From: a virus
Lineage: Duplodnaviria > Heunggongvirae > Uroviricota > Caudoviricetes
Reading direction: 5' to 3' (one strand)
Length of the DNA: 23,310 nucleotides
Virus record (IMG/VR): IMGVR_UViG_3300000553_000015
Both the position numbers and the translations under genes were made by a program. The notes under the pieces are model-generated. The model worked only from the letters and a program-made list of their open reading frames with translations, did no database searches and was not told the origin of the DNA. Positions 1,229 to 23,291 of the stretch are shown piece by piece. Each line of letters opens with the position of its first letter. The first letter of the stretch is position 1.

Positions 1229-3283
1229 TTATTTTGTTGTTGCTCGAAGAATTCCATCCCAGTCTTTGGGAAATGAGATATCTTCACCATATGTTTCTAT
1301 TCGTTTAATCATCATATCATAATAGTAGTCAAGTGCACCATTAAAAGAACCTTTTAATTCGAGGCATTCAACTGTTGCTAGCCACCATTGTTGTGATTGA
1401 TAATAATTAAACATTTTATTGTGTTTTAATCGATGTGCGTGTGAACTATTATTTGGTAATATTGTATAGATATCTAACCCAATAGTTTTTCCTTTAACTG
1501 CTATATCATCCAGTTTAATAACAAAATAATCATTCTCTACAAGTTTAGCAGTTGTGGGGCCAATTATTAATAATACACCATAACCTTTGGTTTGTCCTTC
1601 TAATCTAGCAGCAGTTGATACTGAATCACCAAGTACATCATACCCAAACCTTGCTTTAGACCCAATATTTCCGATTAATGTTGGTCCAGTATTAACACCA
1701 GCTCCCATACCAATTTTGGGTTTACCTTGTCGTACTAATTGCTCATTAAATTTGTCAACGGCTTCGATCATTTCTAAAGCAGTTCTTACCGCATTCTTAG
1801 CGTGGTATTTATCATCTAATGGTGCCCCATGTACATGTAAACTGGCATCACCTATGAATTTTATTAAACACCCATCATTCTTTAATACTGGGTCTGAAAT
1901 AGCAGTCATATAGTCATTCATGATTTTAGTTAACCCTTCTACATCTTCCCCATATGATTCCCCAAGAGTTGTAAACCCTCTTAGGTCTGTCATCACTATA
2001 GACAGCTCTTTCTTTTCGCCACCAAGTTTAATTAACTCTGGATTCTTCTGAAGTCTTTCAACCATTACAGGTGACACATAACTTCCAAATTGTTTCTTGA
2101 TTTGTTGTTTTTGTAAAAATTCATTTACAAATTTAATTCCATATGCATGTAAAGCAACCAAAATAATACCGCTAACTAGTGCAGTGATATCTAAAAGATA
2201 CAGATATTCTGTAAAAGCAAACCTACTTCCAATAACAATACACATTATGATAATGAAAGTGCTTGCTAACCCAACATATACCCATCTTGTTAAAATTAGT
2301 AAAAGTAAACATGAAAATAGTAGAATCCCTTCTTCAGCGGTATCTGCCCAAAACGGTCGTTGGATATTCACGTTATTCATCATTGTACTAATTACCGTTG
2401 CTTGCATATCTTGCGGCCAAACACTACCAATACTTGTAGGAACTGGGTTACCTAGTCCAGCAGCACTTGTACCCACGATTACTATAGCACCATCAAAATC
2501 ATCAGGTAAATGTTCTAAACTAAGTGATTTATGTTGTTGACTCCAATCTATCCATATACGTCCTAAGTTATCTGTGCTTATAGTACCAAACTCAGGAATA
2601 CGCATTTTATCAACACCAAATTCATTCAATTTTACTTGAAATGTTGATACACCTGATGCAACTCTAAGTGCTTCAATTGCAATACTAGGATACAGTTTTT
2701 CATTTACTGATACAACTAGCGGCATACGTCTATTAACACCATCAATTTCTGGTAATGTATTTGTTGTTCCTACACCAGCAGCATTCATTTCTAATGATTC
2801 TATATTTGCAATCAATCCAGGATATTGCACAATTCTATCTAAGTATTCTGAACCAATAACTACACTTCCTGGTGTTTTTGGTAAATTTTTAAATTGCTGA
2901 GACGGAACATTGCTTAACACAACAGGAAATTCTGATAAGTATTTTGCAAGTTGGGAATCTTGTCCACTACGATCCTTATCTGGCATAAGAACATTCCAAA
3001 CAACTAGACCTGCATTTTTAGAATATAAATCATTAATAATTTTTGCATACTCACCACGTGGGAATGGCCATTGACCATATTTGTTTAATGATTCTTCATC
3101 AATATTTACAGTAACAACACTATTTTCGGTTGGGTGTTTATTTGCTATTAATGTGTCAAAATATCTTAATCTAATTGATTCTACAAATGTCGGGTCTGAT
3201 ATTCTTATAACTAAGATTATTGCTAGTGTAATTAACGCTGTCCACACACTTGTTGCTATTTTTCTAAGGATCTGTTTGGTCAT
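1229..3283 (-). CDS. CHASE2-domain class III adenylate/guanylate cyclase
   Basis: N-terminal TM; CHASE2 (VVTVNIDEESL..YGQWPFPR, EIDGVNRRMPL); three TM helices; cyclase motifs SIVMTDLRGFT, KFIGDA, GVNTG..LIGNIGS...YDVLGDSVSTAARLE. K and D specificity residues suggest ATP. Confidence 0.92.
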   Translation of the reverse strand: MTKQILRKIATSVWTALITLAIILVIRISDPTFVESIRLRYFDTLIANKHPTENSVVTVNIDEESLNKYGQWPFPRGEYAKIINDLYSKNAGLVVWNVLMPDKDRSGQDSQLAKYLSEFPVVLSNVPSQQFKNLPKTPGSVVIGSEYLDRIVQYPGLIANIESLEMNAAGVGTTNTLPEIDGVNRRMPLVVSVNEKLYPSIAIEALRVASGVSTFQVKLNEFGVDKMRIPEFGTISTDNLGRIWIDWSQQHKSLSLEHLPDDFDGAIVIVGTSAAGLGNPVPTSIGSVWPQDMQATVISTMMNNVNIQRPFWADTAEEGILLFSCLLLLILTRWVYVGLASTFIIIMCIVIGSRFAFTEYLYLLDITALVSGIILVALHAYGIKFVNEFLQKQQIKKQFGSYVSPVMVERLQKNPELIKLGGEKKELSIVMTDLRGFTTLGESYGEDVEGLTKIMNDYMTAISDPVLKNDGCLIKFIGDASLHVHGAPLDDKYHAKNAVRTALEMIEAVDKFNEQLVRQGKPKIGMGAGVNTGPTLIGNIGSKARFGYDVLGDSVSTAARLEGQTKGYGVLLIIGPTTAKLVENDYFVIKLDDIAVKGKTIGLDIYTILPNNSSHAHRLKHNKMFNYYQSQQWWLATVECLELKGSFNGALDYYYDMMIKRIETYGEDISFPKDWDGILRATTK

Positions 3284-14424: not shown

Positions 14425-14452
14425 ATTATATCACATTTTTCTTAAATGTCAA
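14425..14452 (-). promoter_or_regulatory. sigma70 promoter TTGACA-N16-TATAAT (with extended -10 TGn)
   Basis: -35 at 14447-14452 overlaps the dnaK stop; -10 at 14425-14430; faces hsp20. Confidence 0.6.
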
Positions 14453-16341
14453 ACTTCAGTGAATTCAGCATCCAACGGTTCGTCAGAATTAGCTTCTGAT
14501 GATGTTTGTTTAGCTTGTTCAGCTTCTTGTTTTTTTGCAAATACTGGACTTGCTGCTTCATACAATTTTGTTACTGAATTGGTAATTGCCTCAACATCAT
14601 CACCTTTGGTAGCTTCTTCAACTTTAGATAATGCTGATTCAAACGCTAGTTTTTCATCATCTGATAATTGGTCAGCAACTTCATCAAAGTCTTTTTCTAA
14701 TGAATGTTTTTGAGCATCGGCATTATTACGAGCTTCAATTAGTTCTTTAGCTTTTTTATCAGCATCTGCATTTGCTTCGGCATCTTTTATCATTTGTTCA
14801 ATTTCAGATTCACTTAATCCAGAATCAGATTTAATGGTAATATTATTTTTCTTACCAGTACCTTTATCTTGTGCTGATATATGCATAATACCATTAGCAT
14901 CAATATCAAAGGTTACTTCAATTTGTGGAACGCCACGACGAGCTGGTTCAATACCTTCCAAATTAAATTCACCTAATTGTTTGTTATATTGATATAACTC
15001 ACGTTCACCTTGCCCAACTTTAATATTTACTGCAGGTTGGTTGTCATCCGCAGTTGAGAATACTTGACTAGCTTTTGTAGGGATCGTAGTATTCTTTTGA
15101 ATGATTTTGGTAAACACACCACCCATTGTTTCAATACCCAATGACAATGGTGTAACATCCAATAATAATACGTCAGTTTTATCACCTGACAATACTGCAC
15201 CTTGGACCGCAGCACCAGCCGCAACTGCTTCATCTGGGTTAACATCTTTACGTGGTGCTTTGCCAAATAGTTTTTCAACTGCTTCTTGTACTTTGGGCAT
15301 ACGTGTTTGACCACCAACTAAAATAATTTCATCAATATCTGATAATTTTACTTTAGCGTCTTTAATAGCAATTTTACATGGGGCAATACTTCTTTCAATT
15401 AAATCTTCTACTAATGCTTCAAATTTAGCACGAGTTAATTTAACATTCAAATGTTTTGGACCACTTGCATCTGCTGTTAGGTATGGTAGATTAACGTCTG
15501 TTTGTTCAGCTGATGATAATTCAATTTTAGCTTTTTCAGCTGCTTCTTTTAAACGTTGCAATGCTAATGTATCATTTTTAAGATCAACACCACTATCTTT
15601 CTTAAATTCAGTTACTAAGAAATCCATGATACGTTGATCGAAATCTTCACCACCTAAGAATGTATCACCATTAGTTGATAATACTTCAATTTGTTTCTCA
15701 CCATCTATGTTTGAGATTTCAATGATAGAGATATCAAATGTACCACCACCTAAGTCATAAACAGCAACTTTGCTATCTATATTATCTTTTTTATCAACAC
15801 CAAATGCTAATGCAGCAGCAGTAGGTTCATTGATGATACGCAATACTTCTAGCCCAGCAATACGGCCAGCATCTTTAGTTGCTTGTCTTTGTGAATCATT
15901 GAAATATGCAGGAACTGTGATAACAGCTTGTGATACAGAATATCCTAAATAATCTTCTGCAGTTTTCTTCATTTTACGAAGAACTTCGGCTGATATTTGT
16001 GGTGGGGCTAATTTCTCACCATTTGCTTCGACCCAAGCATCTCCATTATCTGCTTCCAGAATAGTGTATGGCATTAAGTCTATGTCTTTTTGAACTGCGT
16101 CTTCAGCAAATTTACGACCAATCAAACGCTTTGCAGCATAGATTGTATTTTTTGGATTAGTTACTGATTGACGTTTTGCTGCAGCACCAACTAAAACTTC
16201 ATTGTCAGTGTATGCTATGATAGAAGGCGTTGTTCTTGTACCTTCTGAATTTTCGATTACTTTTGCTGAACCATTTTCTAAAATAGCTACGCAAGAATTT
16301 GTAGTACCTAAATCGATACCGATGACTGTATTTTTACTCAT
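14449..16341 (-). CDS. dnaK: Molecular chaperone DnaK (Hsp70)
   Basis: [72 protein letters not shown]. Start set at MSKNT (16341, AAGGAG RBS) rather than the track's 16401. Confidence 0.97.
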
Positions 16342-16349
16342 AATATTTT

Positions 16350-16408
16350 CTCCTTTTATTAAGCGAGGTGTTATTGGCATTATGCCATATATTAAACCCA
16401 ATTGGCAT
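16350..16408 (-). promoter_or_regulatory. ROSE-like RNA thermometer in dnaK leader
   Basis: CUCGCUU (16361-16367) pairs with AAGGAG (16350-16355) with a bulged G; upstream AUGCCA/UGGCAU stem. Confidence 0.6.
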
Positions 16409-21785: not shown

Positions 21786-21814
21786 ATTATATAATAAAAT
21801 ATAATGTTTGTCAA
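21786..21814 (-). promoter_or_regulatory. Perfect sigma70 promoter TTGACA-N17-TATAAT
   Basis: -35 at 21809-21814, -10 at 21786-21791; faces the helicase-MTase gene. Confidence 0.8.
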
Positions 21815-21817
21815 CTA

Positions 21818-21840
21818 AAAAGGGGAATAAATCCCCTTTT
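21818..21840 (-). terminator. Rho-independent terminator after rpsU
   Basis: AAAAGGGGA-N5-TCCCCTTTT with A/T tracts on both sides, immediately after the rpsU stop. Confidence 0.8.
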
Positions 21841-21841
21841 A

Positions 21842-22066
21842 TTAATGCTTTTTTGGTAATGCTTCTTTCTGCAGTTTTTTCTTTAATCTAGCTTTAGCCG
21901 AACCTTTAGCTCTTTTGCGTTCAGTTGTTGGCTTTGTATAGAATTCTTTTTCACGTAGATCATCAAGTTTTCCCGATTCTTCTACTTTCTTTTTAAATTT
22001 TCTTAGAGCTTGGTTTATATTATCATTCTCTTTTAAATAAACCCCAGTTCTAATTCTCTGATTCAT
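21842..22066 (-). CDS. rpsU: Ribosomal protein bS21
   Basis: VYLKENDNINQALRKFKKKVEESGKLDDLREKEFYTKPTTERKRAK. Start placed at MNQR (22066; 22069 also possible). Confidence 0.88.
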   Translation of the reverse strand: MNQRIRTGVYLKENDNINQALRKFKKKVEESGKLDDLREKEFYTKPTTERKRAKGSAKARLKKKLQKEALPKKH

Positions 22067-22478
22067 CATCATCTTCGTCATTGTCCTCATCGTCAATATT
22101 TTGTTGTAGTTGTTCAGCTACCCAGTCTAAATTATAAATCCTATTTTTTGATATTAGATTATATGGAGTTAGTTCATCAGTTGTAATATAATGTACATTT
22201 GGTTGTGCTAACAGAAATGTAATAAATTGTTTAGTTATATCGTTGCAATTATCAACATCAATAATTACAACGTCAACCATAAATGATACACTAAGCAACC
22301 AATCAATATCATTTTCGTCATTTTCATAAATGAATACATTTAAATCATCTATGCTTTTACTCAAAATAGTTTGAAATTGCTGTTTAACATGAAGTGATGG
22401 GCATATCAAAAGATAGCTTACATTCAGATTAAAGATTTTATCTGGGGGTGATATTATTGTTATCTGTCCTAAATTCAT
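22050..22478 (-). CDS. Hypothetical protein with acidic tail
   Basis: 142-aa ORF with AGAGGA RBS; overlaps the rpsU start; no family recognised. Confidence 0.7.
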   Translation of the reverse strand: MNLGQITIISPPDKIFNLNVSYLLICPSLHVKQQFQTILSKSIDDLNVFIYENDENDIDWLLSVSFMVDVVIIDVDNCNDITKQFITFLLAQPNVHYITTDELTPYNLISKNRIYNLDWVAEQLQQNIDDEDNDEDDDESEN

Positions 22479-22510: not shown

Positions 22511-22966
22511 TTAACTGATAATATCTAATGATACTTTTTGTAAACCATTGATACCAATTGATTTAGCAGCTGATTTTGATAAATCAATAATACGATGTTT
22601 AACATATGGACCACGATCATTTATAACAACTACAATAGATTGGTTATTATGTAAGTTAGTGACTTTAACTTTTGTTCCAAATGGTAATTTACGATGTGCT
22701 GCGGTATTTTTATATGGGCTGAAAACATCACCGTTTGCAGTCCTTGGTACTCTTCTGCCTTTTCTAACAGATTCATATCCATACCAACTAGCTATACCAA
22801 TATTACTATATGCTGAGTTATGATTTACTACTGATTTTTTAGTAGTAAATTTTTTATGTTTATGTTCAATATGTGAAACTTTATGAACATGGTTCTTAGT
22901 TTTTGCTTCCGTATAAGAAGCCGATAGACTAGCAATAATTGCTAGAATTATAAGTGAATATTTCAT
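22511..22966 (-). CDS. rlpA: RlpA-like lytic transglycosylase (DPBB domain)
   Basis: Signal peptide from ATG 22966 (AAGGAG RBS); GIASWYG, TANGDVF, TAAHRKLPFGTKVKVTNL, VVINDRGPY, RIIDLSKSAA. Confidence 0.9.
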   Translation of the reverse strand: MKYSLIILAIIASLSASYTEAKTKNHVHKVSHIEHKHKKFTTKKSVVNHNSAYSNIGIASWYGYESVRKGRRVPRTANGDVFSPYKNTAAHRKLPFGTKVKVTNLHNNQSIVVVINDRGPYVKHRIIDLSKSAAKSIGINGLQKVSLDIIS

Positions 22967-22969
22967 TTT

Positions 22970-23230
22970 TTCTCCTTTCACTTGGTGCATTCTAGAGCAG
23001 CAATGCATTACATTAAGGGAGATAACAACCAAGGTTTTTTAAACCCTTTGTCACTGGCGTTTTCTCCATCAGTCATAACTTCTGTCACAAGTTATGCCTT
23101 TGGCGAGTATGGCTTCCCGACTTTCGGGTTTCTACATTGGCCAAGACTCGCAGGTTCAAATAAACTGCATTTGAACCAACTACTCTTAGTTTCTTTCGAA
23201 ACGATCTGTTTATATCTCAATAAAAAGATA
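22970..23230 (-). ncRNA. Long structured 5' leader of rlpA (candidate cis-regulatory RNA)
   Basis: Stems at 23153-23177 (9 bp), 23103-23108/23146-23151 enclosing 23116-23128, 23074-23096 (8 bp), GGAGA 23063-23067/UCUCC, and UGCAUU/AAUGCA. GC-richer than its flanks. Confidence 0.6.
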
Positions 23231-23262
23231 TAGCACTAAGTATTTATTACTTAATGTTTGAT

Positions 23263-23291
23263 ATTATACTACTATATTATATATTTGTCAA
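23263..23291 (-). promoter_or_regulatory. Perfect sigma70 promoter TTGACA-N17-TATAAT
   Basis: -35 at 23286-23291, -10 at 23263-23268; a late-like AATAAATA follows at 23241-23248. Confidence 0.8.

What the first reader, a model, noticed from the sequence alone, without database searches (positions are those of the whole stretch)
22970..23230. About 260-nt structured leader with a switchable anti-SD controlling a lytic transglycosylase
Seen: at least six stems, including a nested domain (GCGAGU/ACUCGC enclosing UGGC/GCCA and CCCGA/UCGGG) with a palindromic UUGGCCAA. UCUCCCUU (23015-23022) can pair either with upstream GGAGA (23063-23067) or with the true SD AAGGAGA (22971-22977); these pairings are mutually exclusive, as in an expression platform. 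Known: cell-wall enzyme genes are often riboswitch-controlled (e.g. c-di-AMP), but I do not recognise this as a known aptamer. Inference: an undescribed phage riboswitch, thermosensor or protein-binding leader that times peptidoglycan remodelling, possibly sensing a nucleotide messenger such as that made by the encoded cyclase.
Basis: partly seen in the sequence, partly recalled or inferred. Interest (0 to 1): 0.72.

Follow-up and report, generated by a model that had tools for sequence, protein, structure and literature searches.

The report
Phage leader RNA gating a lysis enzyme
The 235 bases ahead of this giant lake phage's cell-wall-cutting enzyme gene encode a strongly conserved, intricately folded RNA, absent from RNA-family databases, that probably switches the gene's ribosome-binding site on and off in response to a signal not yet identified.

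Summary
The minus-strand leader (window 22971-23202) folds far better than shuffles (z = -6.1). There is one copy in each of three complete 364-372 kb genomes that encode a T4-type capsid protein.

In 83 distinct sequences, 92% of cells in 58 modelled pairs are paired, against 33-44% in slid controls. Twenty-nine pairs show compensatory changes. No Rfam 15 family matches. No GenBank phage carries it. Among 185,579 prokaryote species genomes the only true match is a 4.3-kb MAG contig.

The RNA always directly precedes one of two unrelated secreted peptidoglycan hydrolases: RlpA/DPBB as here, or more often SleB-like Hydrolase_2. Both sit in the same syntenic slot, at the head of an operon that ends with ribosomal protein S21.

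An invariant CUCC can pair with an upstream decoy GGAG, closing helix P5. It can also pair with the true Shine-Dalgarno sequence, as a coaxial extension of a covariation-supported irregular helix. The two states are nearly isoenergetic.

Best reading: an undescribed riboswitch-like translational switch with an unknown effector. The cyclase link is only a weak co-occurrence. First readers of this scan noted look-alike leaders on two windows of another genome.

The parts
23263..23291 (-). Consensus sigma70 promoter TTGACA-17-TATAAT
   Evidence: 12/12 match. An 11-12/12 promoter lies 35-95 nt upstream of P1 in 18 of the RlpA-type relatives and in no SleB-type locus.
23206..23262 (-). Lineage-specific 5' extension with an AU hairpin and a proximal A/T-rich box (GAGATATAAACAG, 23206-23218)
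   Evidence: The extension varies in length and sequence among relatives. Most relatives have the box nCTATATAWWATAC abutting P1. The box is not enriched genome-wide.
23189..23202 (-). P1: 5-bp hairpin GUUUC/GAAAC with a GNRA-type loop
   Evidence: 100% paired in 83 sequences, with one U-A to A-U swap. Loops are GCAAA, GAGA, GAAA, GUAA, GCAA.
23178..23188 (-). J1/2: nearly invariant linker UAAGA(G)UAGUU
   Evidence: Consensus uaAGAUAGu. No partner identified.
23153..23177 (-). P2: variable-length hairpin
   Evidence: 6 of 7 pairs have compensatory changes, e.g. UA33/AU31/CG10/GC5. It is among the top mutual-information pairs.
23103..23151 (-). P3 domain: P3 (GCGAGU/ACUCGC), P3a (UGGC/GCCA), A-rich internal loop, P3b (CCCGA/UCGGG)
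   Evidence: Folds identically in every homologue. 93-100% paired, mostly G-C to G-U changes.
23072..23097 (-). P4 hairpin
   Evidence: 8 of 10 pairs have compensatory changes.
23063..23067 (-). Decoy SD-like GGAGA, the 5' strand of the P5 closing helix
   Evidence: GGAG is invariant in all but one of the 38 sequences not selected for it (the divergent L058 reads GGAU). It pairs with CUCC in 99.4% of cells. In L058 the helix is rebuilt as GGA-GAGAA/UUCUC-UCC.
23024..23061 (-). P5a/P5b/P5c: inner helices of the P5 domain
   Evidence: 10 pairs with compensatory changes, e.g. CCAG/UUGG against CACG/CGUG.
23018..23022 (-). Anti-SD UCUCC, shared by the two alternative helices
   Evidence: CUCC in 80 of 83 sequences. 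Complementary to both GGAG elements.
23008..23017 (-). 5' strand of extended P6 helix (CUUAAUGUAA)
   Evidence: Pairs in register with 22976-22985. Variants U:G to U:A (15) to A:U (1), A:U to G:U (3), and co-insertion of U with A.
22986..23007 (-). P6 hairpin
   Evidence: Inner pairs GC34/UA22/AU16/CG9 and AU32/GC20/UA12/CG10. These are the highest mutual information in the alignment.
22976..22985 (-). 3' strand of extended P6 helix (CCAAGUGAAA)
   Evidence: See the 5' strand entry. 99.4% of cells paired against 42-61% in slid controls.
22971..22975 (-). Shine-Dalgarno GGAGA of the hydrolase gene
   Evidence: GGAG is invariant in 83 of 83 sequences. The start codon follows after about 4-9 nt in the family; here it is the ATG at 22964-22966.
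22511..22966 (-). rlpA-like gene: 151 aa, signal peptide plus DPBB lytic transglycosylase domain
   Evidence: Pfam DPBB_1, E = 1.4e-21. The N-terminus MKYSLIILAIIASLSASYTEA reads as a Sec signal (sequence, inference).
22050..22478 (-). 142-aa acidic protein of unknown family ('c1'), second gene of the operon
   Evidence: No Pfam or PHROG hit. It lies downstream of the hydrolase, directly or after a few intervening genes, wherever the contig reaches that far, and is followed by S21.
21842..22096 (-). Ribosomal protein S21 gene, last gene of the operon
   Evidence: Pfam Ribosomal_S21, E = 1.6e-14. The exact start codon is uncertain.
21823..21836 (-). Terminator-like hairpin plus T-run directly after S21
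   Evidence: Scan hit at L001 377-364, which is window 21836-21823. It is followed by a second perfect sigma70 promoter at window 21786-21814.

Best explanation
Window 22971-23202 (minus strand) encodes an undescribed, phage-specific, roughly 235-nt cis-regulatory RNA that fills the 5' UTR of a secreted cell-wall hydrolase operon (rlpA, orf142, rpsU). It has six helical domains, P1 to P6. One CUCC tract can pair in two mutually exclusive ways. It can pair with a decoy GGAG 75 nt upstream, which closes the P5 domain and leaves the Shine-Dalgarno sequence free (ON). Or it can pair with the true SD, continuing the irregular extended P6 helix and blocking 30S binding (OFF). The large, highly conserved 5' part (P1-P4 with invariant junctions) most likely binds an effector that decides which pairing wins. 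That effector could be a small molecule, a second messenger or a protein. The result would be timed translation of a lysis-type enzyme. Shown: the conserved structure, the gene association, and the feasibility and near-equal stability of both pairings. Inferred: that switching occurs, its direction, and that an effector exists.
For: Structure: z = -6.06. 92.3% of cells paired against 33-44% in slid controls, 29 compensatory pairs, 0 of 500 shuffles reach the observed values. Helix pairs top the mutual-information ranking.

Selection on the RNA rather than on a protein: leader nucleotide identity is 75-84% in RlpA-type relatives whose RlpA proteins are only 47-53% identical. 54 of 230 consensus columns are invariant. 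There is no codon periodicity, and indel lengths fall evenly across the three residues mod 3.

Cis location: in most relatives a conserved A/T box abuts P1; the SD lies inside the conserved 3' block, with the start codon about 4-9 nt after it.

Gene association: all 79 assignable downstream genes are peptidoglycan hydrolases of two unrelated folds, 58 Hydrolase_2 and 21 DPBB. The SleB-like one matches PHROG endolysin families.

Switch: decoy GGAG:CUCC is possible in 99.4% of cells. The SD:CUCC helix is possible in 99.4% and is coaxial with a helix supported by U:G/U:A/A:U and A:U/G:U variants, by A.G to A:U changes, and by a U plus A co-insertion next to the SD. Constrained MFEs differ by a median of -1.75 kcal/mol, with ON more stable in 69 sequences and OFF in 13.

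One copy per complete genome.
Against: No experiment or transcript data.

GGAG, CUCC and the SD hardly vary, so neither alternative 4-bp helix is itself proven by covariation. The support is indirect, from flanking helices and from L058.

No ligand is indicated. There is no closing helix or proven tertiary contact joining P1-P4 into a pocket.

Both hydrolase types occupy the same syntenic slot. The two gene associations are therefore not independent contexts, and the leader might serve the whole operon, including S21.

About 55 of 79 syntenic loci manage with a different, shorter leader.
Confidence: 0.6

Rival explanations
1. Protein-operated leader. The conserved RNA is the operator of a phage or host protein. 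That protein could be the co-transcribed S21 recognising a mimic of the 16S 3' end and its SD:anti-SD helix, the unknown 142-aa operon protein, or a RegA-like translational repressor binding the UUAAUGUAA tract. It would stabilise the SD-sequestered state.
For: S21 and the 142-aa protein lie downstream in the same operon wherever the contigs reach that far. The anti-SD tract AUCUCCCUUA resembles the 16S rRNA 3' tail (own knowledge). The near-invariant UUAAUGUAA resembles the RegA SELEX consensus AAAAUUGUUAUGUAA and the UAA-triplet sites of RB69 RegA (PMC3014915). The irregular extended P6 helix with conserved mismatches looks like a protein-binding platform.
Against: No RegA (PF01818) is detectable in three complete genomes. 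S21 lies 1-4 kb downstream, separated by up to seven genes in SleB-type operons. The same operon tail occurs behind the unrelated type-B leader. The UUAAUGUAA tract is base-paired according to covariation, whereas RegA sites are unstructured.
Confidence: 0.2
2. Effector-free structural leader. The fold acts constitutively. It could set a low fixed translation rate for a dangerous enzyme, protect the mRNA 5' end, provide a ribosome standby or decoy site, or give temporal control through alternative transcript 5' ends as in T4 gene e.
For: T4 genes e, soc, 49 and I-TevI sequester their SD in a helix in long early transcripts, with about 100-fold repression of lysozyme (PMC3014915). The relatives encode T4-type gp23. 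RlpA-type loci have two promoter-like elements, a consensus sigma70 promoter plus a proximal box. A decoy SD also occurs in the type-B leader.
Against: Both promoter-like elements lie upstream of the whole element, so every transcript carries both strands of the SD helix, unlike T4 gene e. The 5' extensions are not conserved. A simple occluding hairpin does not explain about 135 nt of conserved P1-P4 with 54 invariant columns.
Confidence: 0.13
3. Independent non-coding RNA or ribozyme (for example self-cleaving, tmRNA-like or tRNA-like) that merely lies upstream of the hydrolase gene.
For: Its size, complexity and conservation are in the range of large ncRNAs. Related marine phages carry two-piece tmRNA genes (PMC9004378).
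Against: ARAGORN finds no tRNA or tmRNA. No Rfam ribozyme, tmRNA or other family matches. There is no terminator between P6 and the gene. The SD is part of the conserved, covarying 3' helix. The element is always immediately 5' of a start codon.
Confidence: 0.05
4. The region is protein-coding: the 83-codon plus-strand ORF 22982-23233 or a small sense-strand peptide.
For: Stop-free antisense stretches of at least 60 codons occur in 40 of 83 homologues. An AUG follows the decoy (sequence).
Against: Column variability shows no third-position excess (0.606, 0.679, 0.625). Leader lengths are spread evenly over the three residues mod 3 (32, 26, 25). Substitutions are compensatory across helices.
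Confidence: 0.02

Closest known systems
Translational riboswitches whose SD is part of, or competes with, the conserved fold (for example preQ1-II, SAM-II/SAM-V, and SD-sequestering expression platforms)
   Same: A cis-acting 5' UTR RNA with covarying helices. The SD lies inside the conserved block. Pairing of an anti-SD is mutually exclusive.
   Different: No sequence or structure match. The best Rfam score is preQ1-II at 17 bits against a cut-off of 47. This RNA is much larger, about 235 nt with six helical domains. It uses an explicit upstream decoy GGAG. The ligand is unknown. It is so far found only in phage.
ydaO/yuaA c-di-AMP riboswitch (RF00379), often upstream of cell-wall hydrolase genes in Firmicutes and Actinobacteria (own knowledge)
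   Same: A long structured leader in front of peptidoglycan-remodelling enzymes, suggesting messenger-controlled wall hydrolysis.
   Different: No Rfam match even at E<=10. The helix layout is different, with no pseudo-twofold symmetry. The host range is different.
SD-sequestering leader hairpin of T4 gene e (lysozyme), and of soc, 49 and I-TevI (PMC3014915)
   Same: A T4-type phage in which a lysis-type enzyme's ribosome site sits in an RNA helix, probably to avoid untimely wall damage.
   Different: In T4 a short hairpin is bypassed because late promoters lie inside it. Here both promoter-like elements precede a 235-nt multi-domain RNA, and release would need a decoy strand exchange.
Glutamine (glnA RNA) riboswitches reported in Melnitz-like and pelagimyophage genomes (PMC9004378)
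   Same: Riboswitch use by T4-like phages of streamlined aquatic bacteria.
   Different: An unrelated small motif with no Rfam hit here. That paper and PMC7029224 found no other riboswitch in these phages.
Catalogue of 8,495 candidate structured RNAs mined from IMG/VR (PMC10690425)
   Same: The same data source, so fragments of this leader may be among its unnamed 'DNAVirus_X' entries.
   Different: Those candidates are 29-151 nt long. None is described as upstream of hydrolases in the text. Its supplementary files are not held, so overlap could not be checked.

Membership tests
Riboswitch (generic definition) | Conserved structured domain supported by covariation | tested here: met
   29 of 58 pairs have compensatory changes. 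92.3% of cells paired against 33-44% in slid controls.
Riboswitch (generic definition) | Located in cis in the 5' UTR of the controlled gene | tested here: met
   A promoter-like box abuts P1 and the SD lies inside the 3' block. All 79 assignable instances are followed by a start codon.
Riboswitch (generic definition) | Expression platform with mutually exclusive structures | tested here: inconclusive
   Both CUCC pairings are possible in over 99% of sequences and are near-isoenergetic. The elements themselves do not vary, and no probing data exist.
Riboswitch (generic definition) | Direct, protein-free binding of a ligand | not testable with these tools
   Needs in-line probing, ITC or a similar assay.
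ydaO/yuaA c-di-AMP riboswitch (RF00379) | Match to the family covariance model | tested here: not met
   No hit at gathering score or at E<=10 or E<=5 for two family members.
preQ1-II riboswitch (RF01054) | Match to the family covariance model at or above 47 bits | tested here: not met
   17 bits, E = 3.7. The match rests on the SD and a generic stem.
glnA RNA / glutamine riboswitch | Match to the Rfam model | tested here: not met
   No hit.
tmRNA (including two-piece) or tRNA-like RNA | tRNA-like domain and tag reading frame detectable by ARAGORN or Rfam | tested here: not met
   ARAGORN found 0 genes. No Rfam tmRNA hit.
T4 gene e-type translational occlusion | SD or AUG sequestered in an RNA helix | tested here: met
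   CUCC:GGAG(SD) continues a covariation-supported helix. This is in silico only.
T4 gene e-type translational occlusion | A late promoter inside the 5' strand, so that late transcripts lack the occluding strand | tested here: not met
   The only promoter-like elements lie upstream of P1.
Ribosomal-protein autoregulatory leader (S21) | The leader mimics the protein's rRNA site and is bound by it | not testable with these tools
   The only observations are co-transcription with S21 and a loose resemblance of AUCUCCCUUA to the 16S 3' tail.
RegA-type translational operator | Presence of a RegA protein in the genome | tested here: not met
   No PF01818 match in three complete genomes. No control genome could match either, so a distant homologue is not excluded.

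The most novel reading that the evidence does not exclude
The RNA is the aptamer and platform of a new riboswitch class that senses a cyclic nucleotide. The candidate is cAMP made by the roughly 690-aa membrane class III cyclase of the phage's curli-FecR-cyclase module. That would couple a periplasmic signal to translation of the secreted lysis enzyme, a riboswitch-based analogue of T4 lysis inhibition. No natural cAMP riboswitch is known (own knowledge).
Probability: 0.07. Interest if true: 0.95.

Novelty: new variant of a known kind. Interest (0 to 1): 0.74.

Why it matters
Large, strongly conserved orphan RNAs with clear gene associations have been the source of nearly every new riboswitch class. 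Very few are known from phages, and published surveys of pelagimyophage-type phages found none apart from glutamine riboswitches.

This RNA is abundant in lake metagenomes and single-copy in roughly 370-kb T4-like genomes. It is more conserved than the proteins around it, and it sits exactly where a phage must avoid mistimed cell-wall damage.

If it is a switch, it would show a new RNA-based route for timing lysis or wall remodelling. It would also supply a compact decoy-SD design and a defined 235-nt target for ligand screens. If its effector turns out to be a messenger or a wall precursor, it would open a testable link between phage sensing and lysis.

Tried and rejected
(1) Known families. 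Rfam at gathering score and at E<=10 or E<=5 on three leaders gave only noise. ARAGORN found nothing.

(2) GenBank phages. blastn of the window leader plus gene, of an SleB-type leader and of a type-B leader gave no true match.

(3) Pseudoknot CUUGG (P3a) with CCAAG (3' tail). Rejected. The tail G changes to A in many sequences without compensation. That same change improves the pair in the extended P6 helix. L058 lacks CUUGG.

(4) The AAGA:UCUU helix proposed by RNAalifold on the MAFFT alignment. It has no covariation and competes with the full P3a helix of SleB-type members, so it was not adopted.

(5) The A9-opposite-G10 register for the 3' helix. Replaced by the i:i register once A:U and U:A variants and the U plus A co-insertion were seen.

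(6) The window-specific long-range pairing GAGUAGUU with the P6 loop in the MFE. It is not conserved.

(7) The 5' extension as an anti-switch (CAUUAAG complementary to CUUAAUG). It is present in only three related loci.

(8) The proximal A/T box as a genome-wide promoter consensus. It is not enriched over the control.

(9) Upstream or antisense ORFs. No periodicity.

(10) RegA. No homologue found.

(12) The supplementary tables of PMC10690425 are not held.

(13) Of 12 pattern matches in prokaryote genomes, 11 are chance, being CM-negative.

Full report
**Anatomy in the window.** The finding lies on the minus strand. A perfect sigma70 promoter (TTGACA-17-TATAAT, window 23291-23263) is followed by a 57-nt extension and then the conserved element, window 23202 down to 22971. 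Next come the start codon (22966-22964) and a 151-aa protein with a signal-peptide-like N-terminus and a DPBB lytic-transglycosylase domain (Pfam E = 1.4e-21).

The next two genes are tightly packed: a 142-aa acidic protein of no known family and ribosomal protein S21 (E = 1.6e-14). A terminator-like hairpin at 21836-21823 and a second perfect promoter close the unit. The leader therefore heads an rlpA-orf142-rpsU operon.

The RNA folds far better than shuffles, with z = -6.06.

**It is a family.** Twenty viral contigs encoding RlpA relatives were fetched. In 17 of them the upstream region matched the leader. In most, nucleotide identity was 75-84% although the proteins are only 47-53% identical.

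A pattern from the 3' block found 56 IMG/VR loci. A covariance model (R1) confirmed 59 of 61 new viral loci and 78 of 81 loci in the metagenome batch, which also included the one MAG contig.

Three complete genomes of 364-372 kb each carry one copy and encode a T4-type gp23 capsid protein. GenBank phages have no match. Of 185,579 prokaryote species genomes, the first pattern hit none. The second hit 12 places, of which only a 4.3-kb contig binned with a Crocinitomicaceae MAG is CM-positive. I take that contig for phage DNA; this is an inference.

Rfam 15 has no match at any threshold tried. ARAGORN finds nothing.

**Structure.** Segment-wise folding gave the same architecture in every member.
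- P1 is a 5-bp hairpin with GNRA-type loops.
- J1/2 is an almost invariant linker.
- P2 is a variable hairpin.
- P3 is a three-tier domain (P3, P3a, P3b) with an A-rich internal loop.
- P4 is a hairpin.
- P5 is a four-tier domain closed by GGAG:CUCC.
- P6 is a hairpin flanked by two conserved strands.

On the structure-blind alignment of 38 sequences, 90.2% of cells pair against 36-43% in slid controls. On 83 distinct sequences the figures are 92.3% against 33-44%. Twenty-nine pairs have compensatory changes, and no shuffle of 500 reaches the observed values. Helix pairs head the mutual-information ranking.

There is no coding signal. Variability does not peak at any codon position on either strand. 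Leader lengths are evenly spread over the three residues mod 3.

**The 3' domain and the switch.** Sequences collected through the 5' anchor vary in the 3' blocks, which were not selected for in that set. The changes fit one register, in which 5'-CUCCCUUAAUGUAAUG pairs with CACCAAGUGAAAGGAG-3' around P6.
- One pair occurs as U:G (66), U:A (15) and A:U (1).
- Its neighbour occurs as A:U (78) and G:U (3).
- An A.C becomes A:U.
- An A.G becomes A:U in some metagenome variants.
- An extra U in the 5' strand always comes with an extra A next to the SD.

The helix continues coaxially into CUCC:GGAG(SD).

The same CUCC is also the 3' strand of the P5 closing helix, pairing with the decoy GGAG. That helix is held in place by the covarying P5a-c helices and is rebuilt in longer form in the divergent member L058. 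With either pairing enforced, MFEs differ by a median of -1.75 kcal/mol (range -5.9 to +4.1). ON is more stable in 69 sequences and OFF in 13. The energy model ignores the non-canonical pairs of the OFF helix.

Whether and how it switches is inference.

**Gene association.** Downstream genes are SleB-like (58 sequences; Pfam Hydrolase_2, E = 6e-25; PHROG 'endolysin', E = 1e-19) or RlpA-like (21 sequences). The rest are cut by contig ends.

The two enzymes are unrelated, but they occupy the same syntenic slot. Upstream lie nrdB-like, glutaredoxin-like and PAAR-like genes (read from sequence; not run against family libraries). Downstream lie membrane and lipobox proteins, then the 142-aa protein and S21. 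The association is consistent, but it is not two independent contexts.

RlpA-type loci add a consensus sigma70 promoter 35-95 nt upstream. SleB-type loci have only the proximal A/T box.

Of 79 loci fetched through the 142-aa protein, only 20 carry this leader. Most others have a different, shorter conserved leader ('type B') before the SleB-like gene. It has its own covarying hairpins, a displayed SD-like decoy and a similar 3' tail. More distant RlpA genes lack either leader.

**What it most likely does.** It probably gates translation initiation of a secreted, potentially lethal wall hydrolase.

The size and conservation of P1-P4 argue for a bound effector. There are 54 invariant columns, GNRA loops and invariant junctions.

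A protein operator is the main rival; S21, the 142-aa protein or a RegA-like repressor could fill that role. The UUAAUGUAA tract resembles RegA sites (PMC3014915). However, no RegA gene is found, and the tract is paired.

The T4 gene e mechanism is the closest functional precedent. Its defining feature, a late promoter inside the occluding strand, is absent here.

A class III cyclase occurs in 19 of 21 contigs with this leader and in 4 of 14 with other leaders. Contig size and relatedness confound this comparison, and some type-B contigs also have the cyclase.

**Novelty.** Papers on Melnitz-like and pelagimyophage genomes report only glutamine riboswitches or none. A catalogue of IMG/VR candidate RNAs of 29-151 nt may contain fragments, but this could not be checked. 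First readers of this scan noted look-alike leaders on two windows of another genome; those notes were not verified here.

I class it as a new RNA family of a known kind, a cis-acting SD-gating leader or orphan riboswitch candidate.

Noticed in passing
L087:2860-3060 and about 35 other loci (for example L085:2868-2999, L091:2830-2965): A second, unrelated conserved leader ('type B', about 130 nt) precedes the SleB-like gene in most syntenic loci. Its layout is: GATAAYTAYWTATTG box, covarying hairpin, a GGCU...AGCC element displaying an AAGGAGA decoy, a hairpin with a CUAGCGA loop (UA/AU/CG covariation), then AUCCAGCGUAAAGGAG, whose UCC can pair with the SD. It has no Rfam hit and is not in GenBank phages.
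   Followed up: partly
L177:5700-6250 (also L206): One type-A leader is interrupted inside P6 by an insertion. The insertion carries a strong hairpin and an opposite-strand ORF that reads like an IS200/IS605-type transposase. The SD module is displaced.
   Followed up: no
window 1229-3283 (-), and G001-G021 contigs: A class III nucleotide cyclase of about 690 aa (PF00211) is present in 19 of 21 contigs with the type-A leader and in 4 of 14 contigs with other leaders. It is absent from a 94%-complete type-B genome. Contig length and phylogeny confound this.
   Followed up: partly
window 21786-21814 (-) and 23263-23291 (-): Two perfect 12/12 sigma70 consensus promoters lie within 1.5 kb. The first follows the terminator-like hairpin after S21 and drives the 1149-aa ResIII/Eco57I-like gene.
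   Followed up: no
L037:7271-8929 and L026:10847-12456: SleB-type operons continue with a small membrane protein, two lipobox proteins (...GCSS) and a secreted protein, before a 350-520-aa membrane protein. The arrangement looks like a lysis cassette (holin and spanin candidates), but there are no PHROG or Pfam hits.
   Followed up: partly
L258 (JBDNIA010000258.1, 4.3 kb): The only CM-positive match in prokaryote genome assemblies is a short contig binned into a Crocinitomicaceae (Bacteroidota) MAG. It is either mis-binned phage DNA or a hint about the host.
   Followed up: no
window 14449-16401 (-): The phage encodes a full-length Hsp70/DnaK (Pfam E = 7e-257).
   Followed up: no
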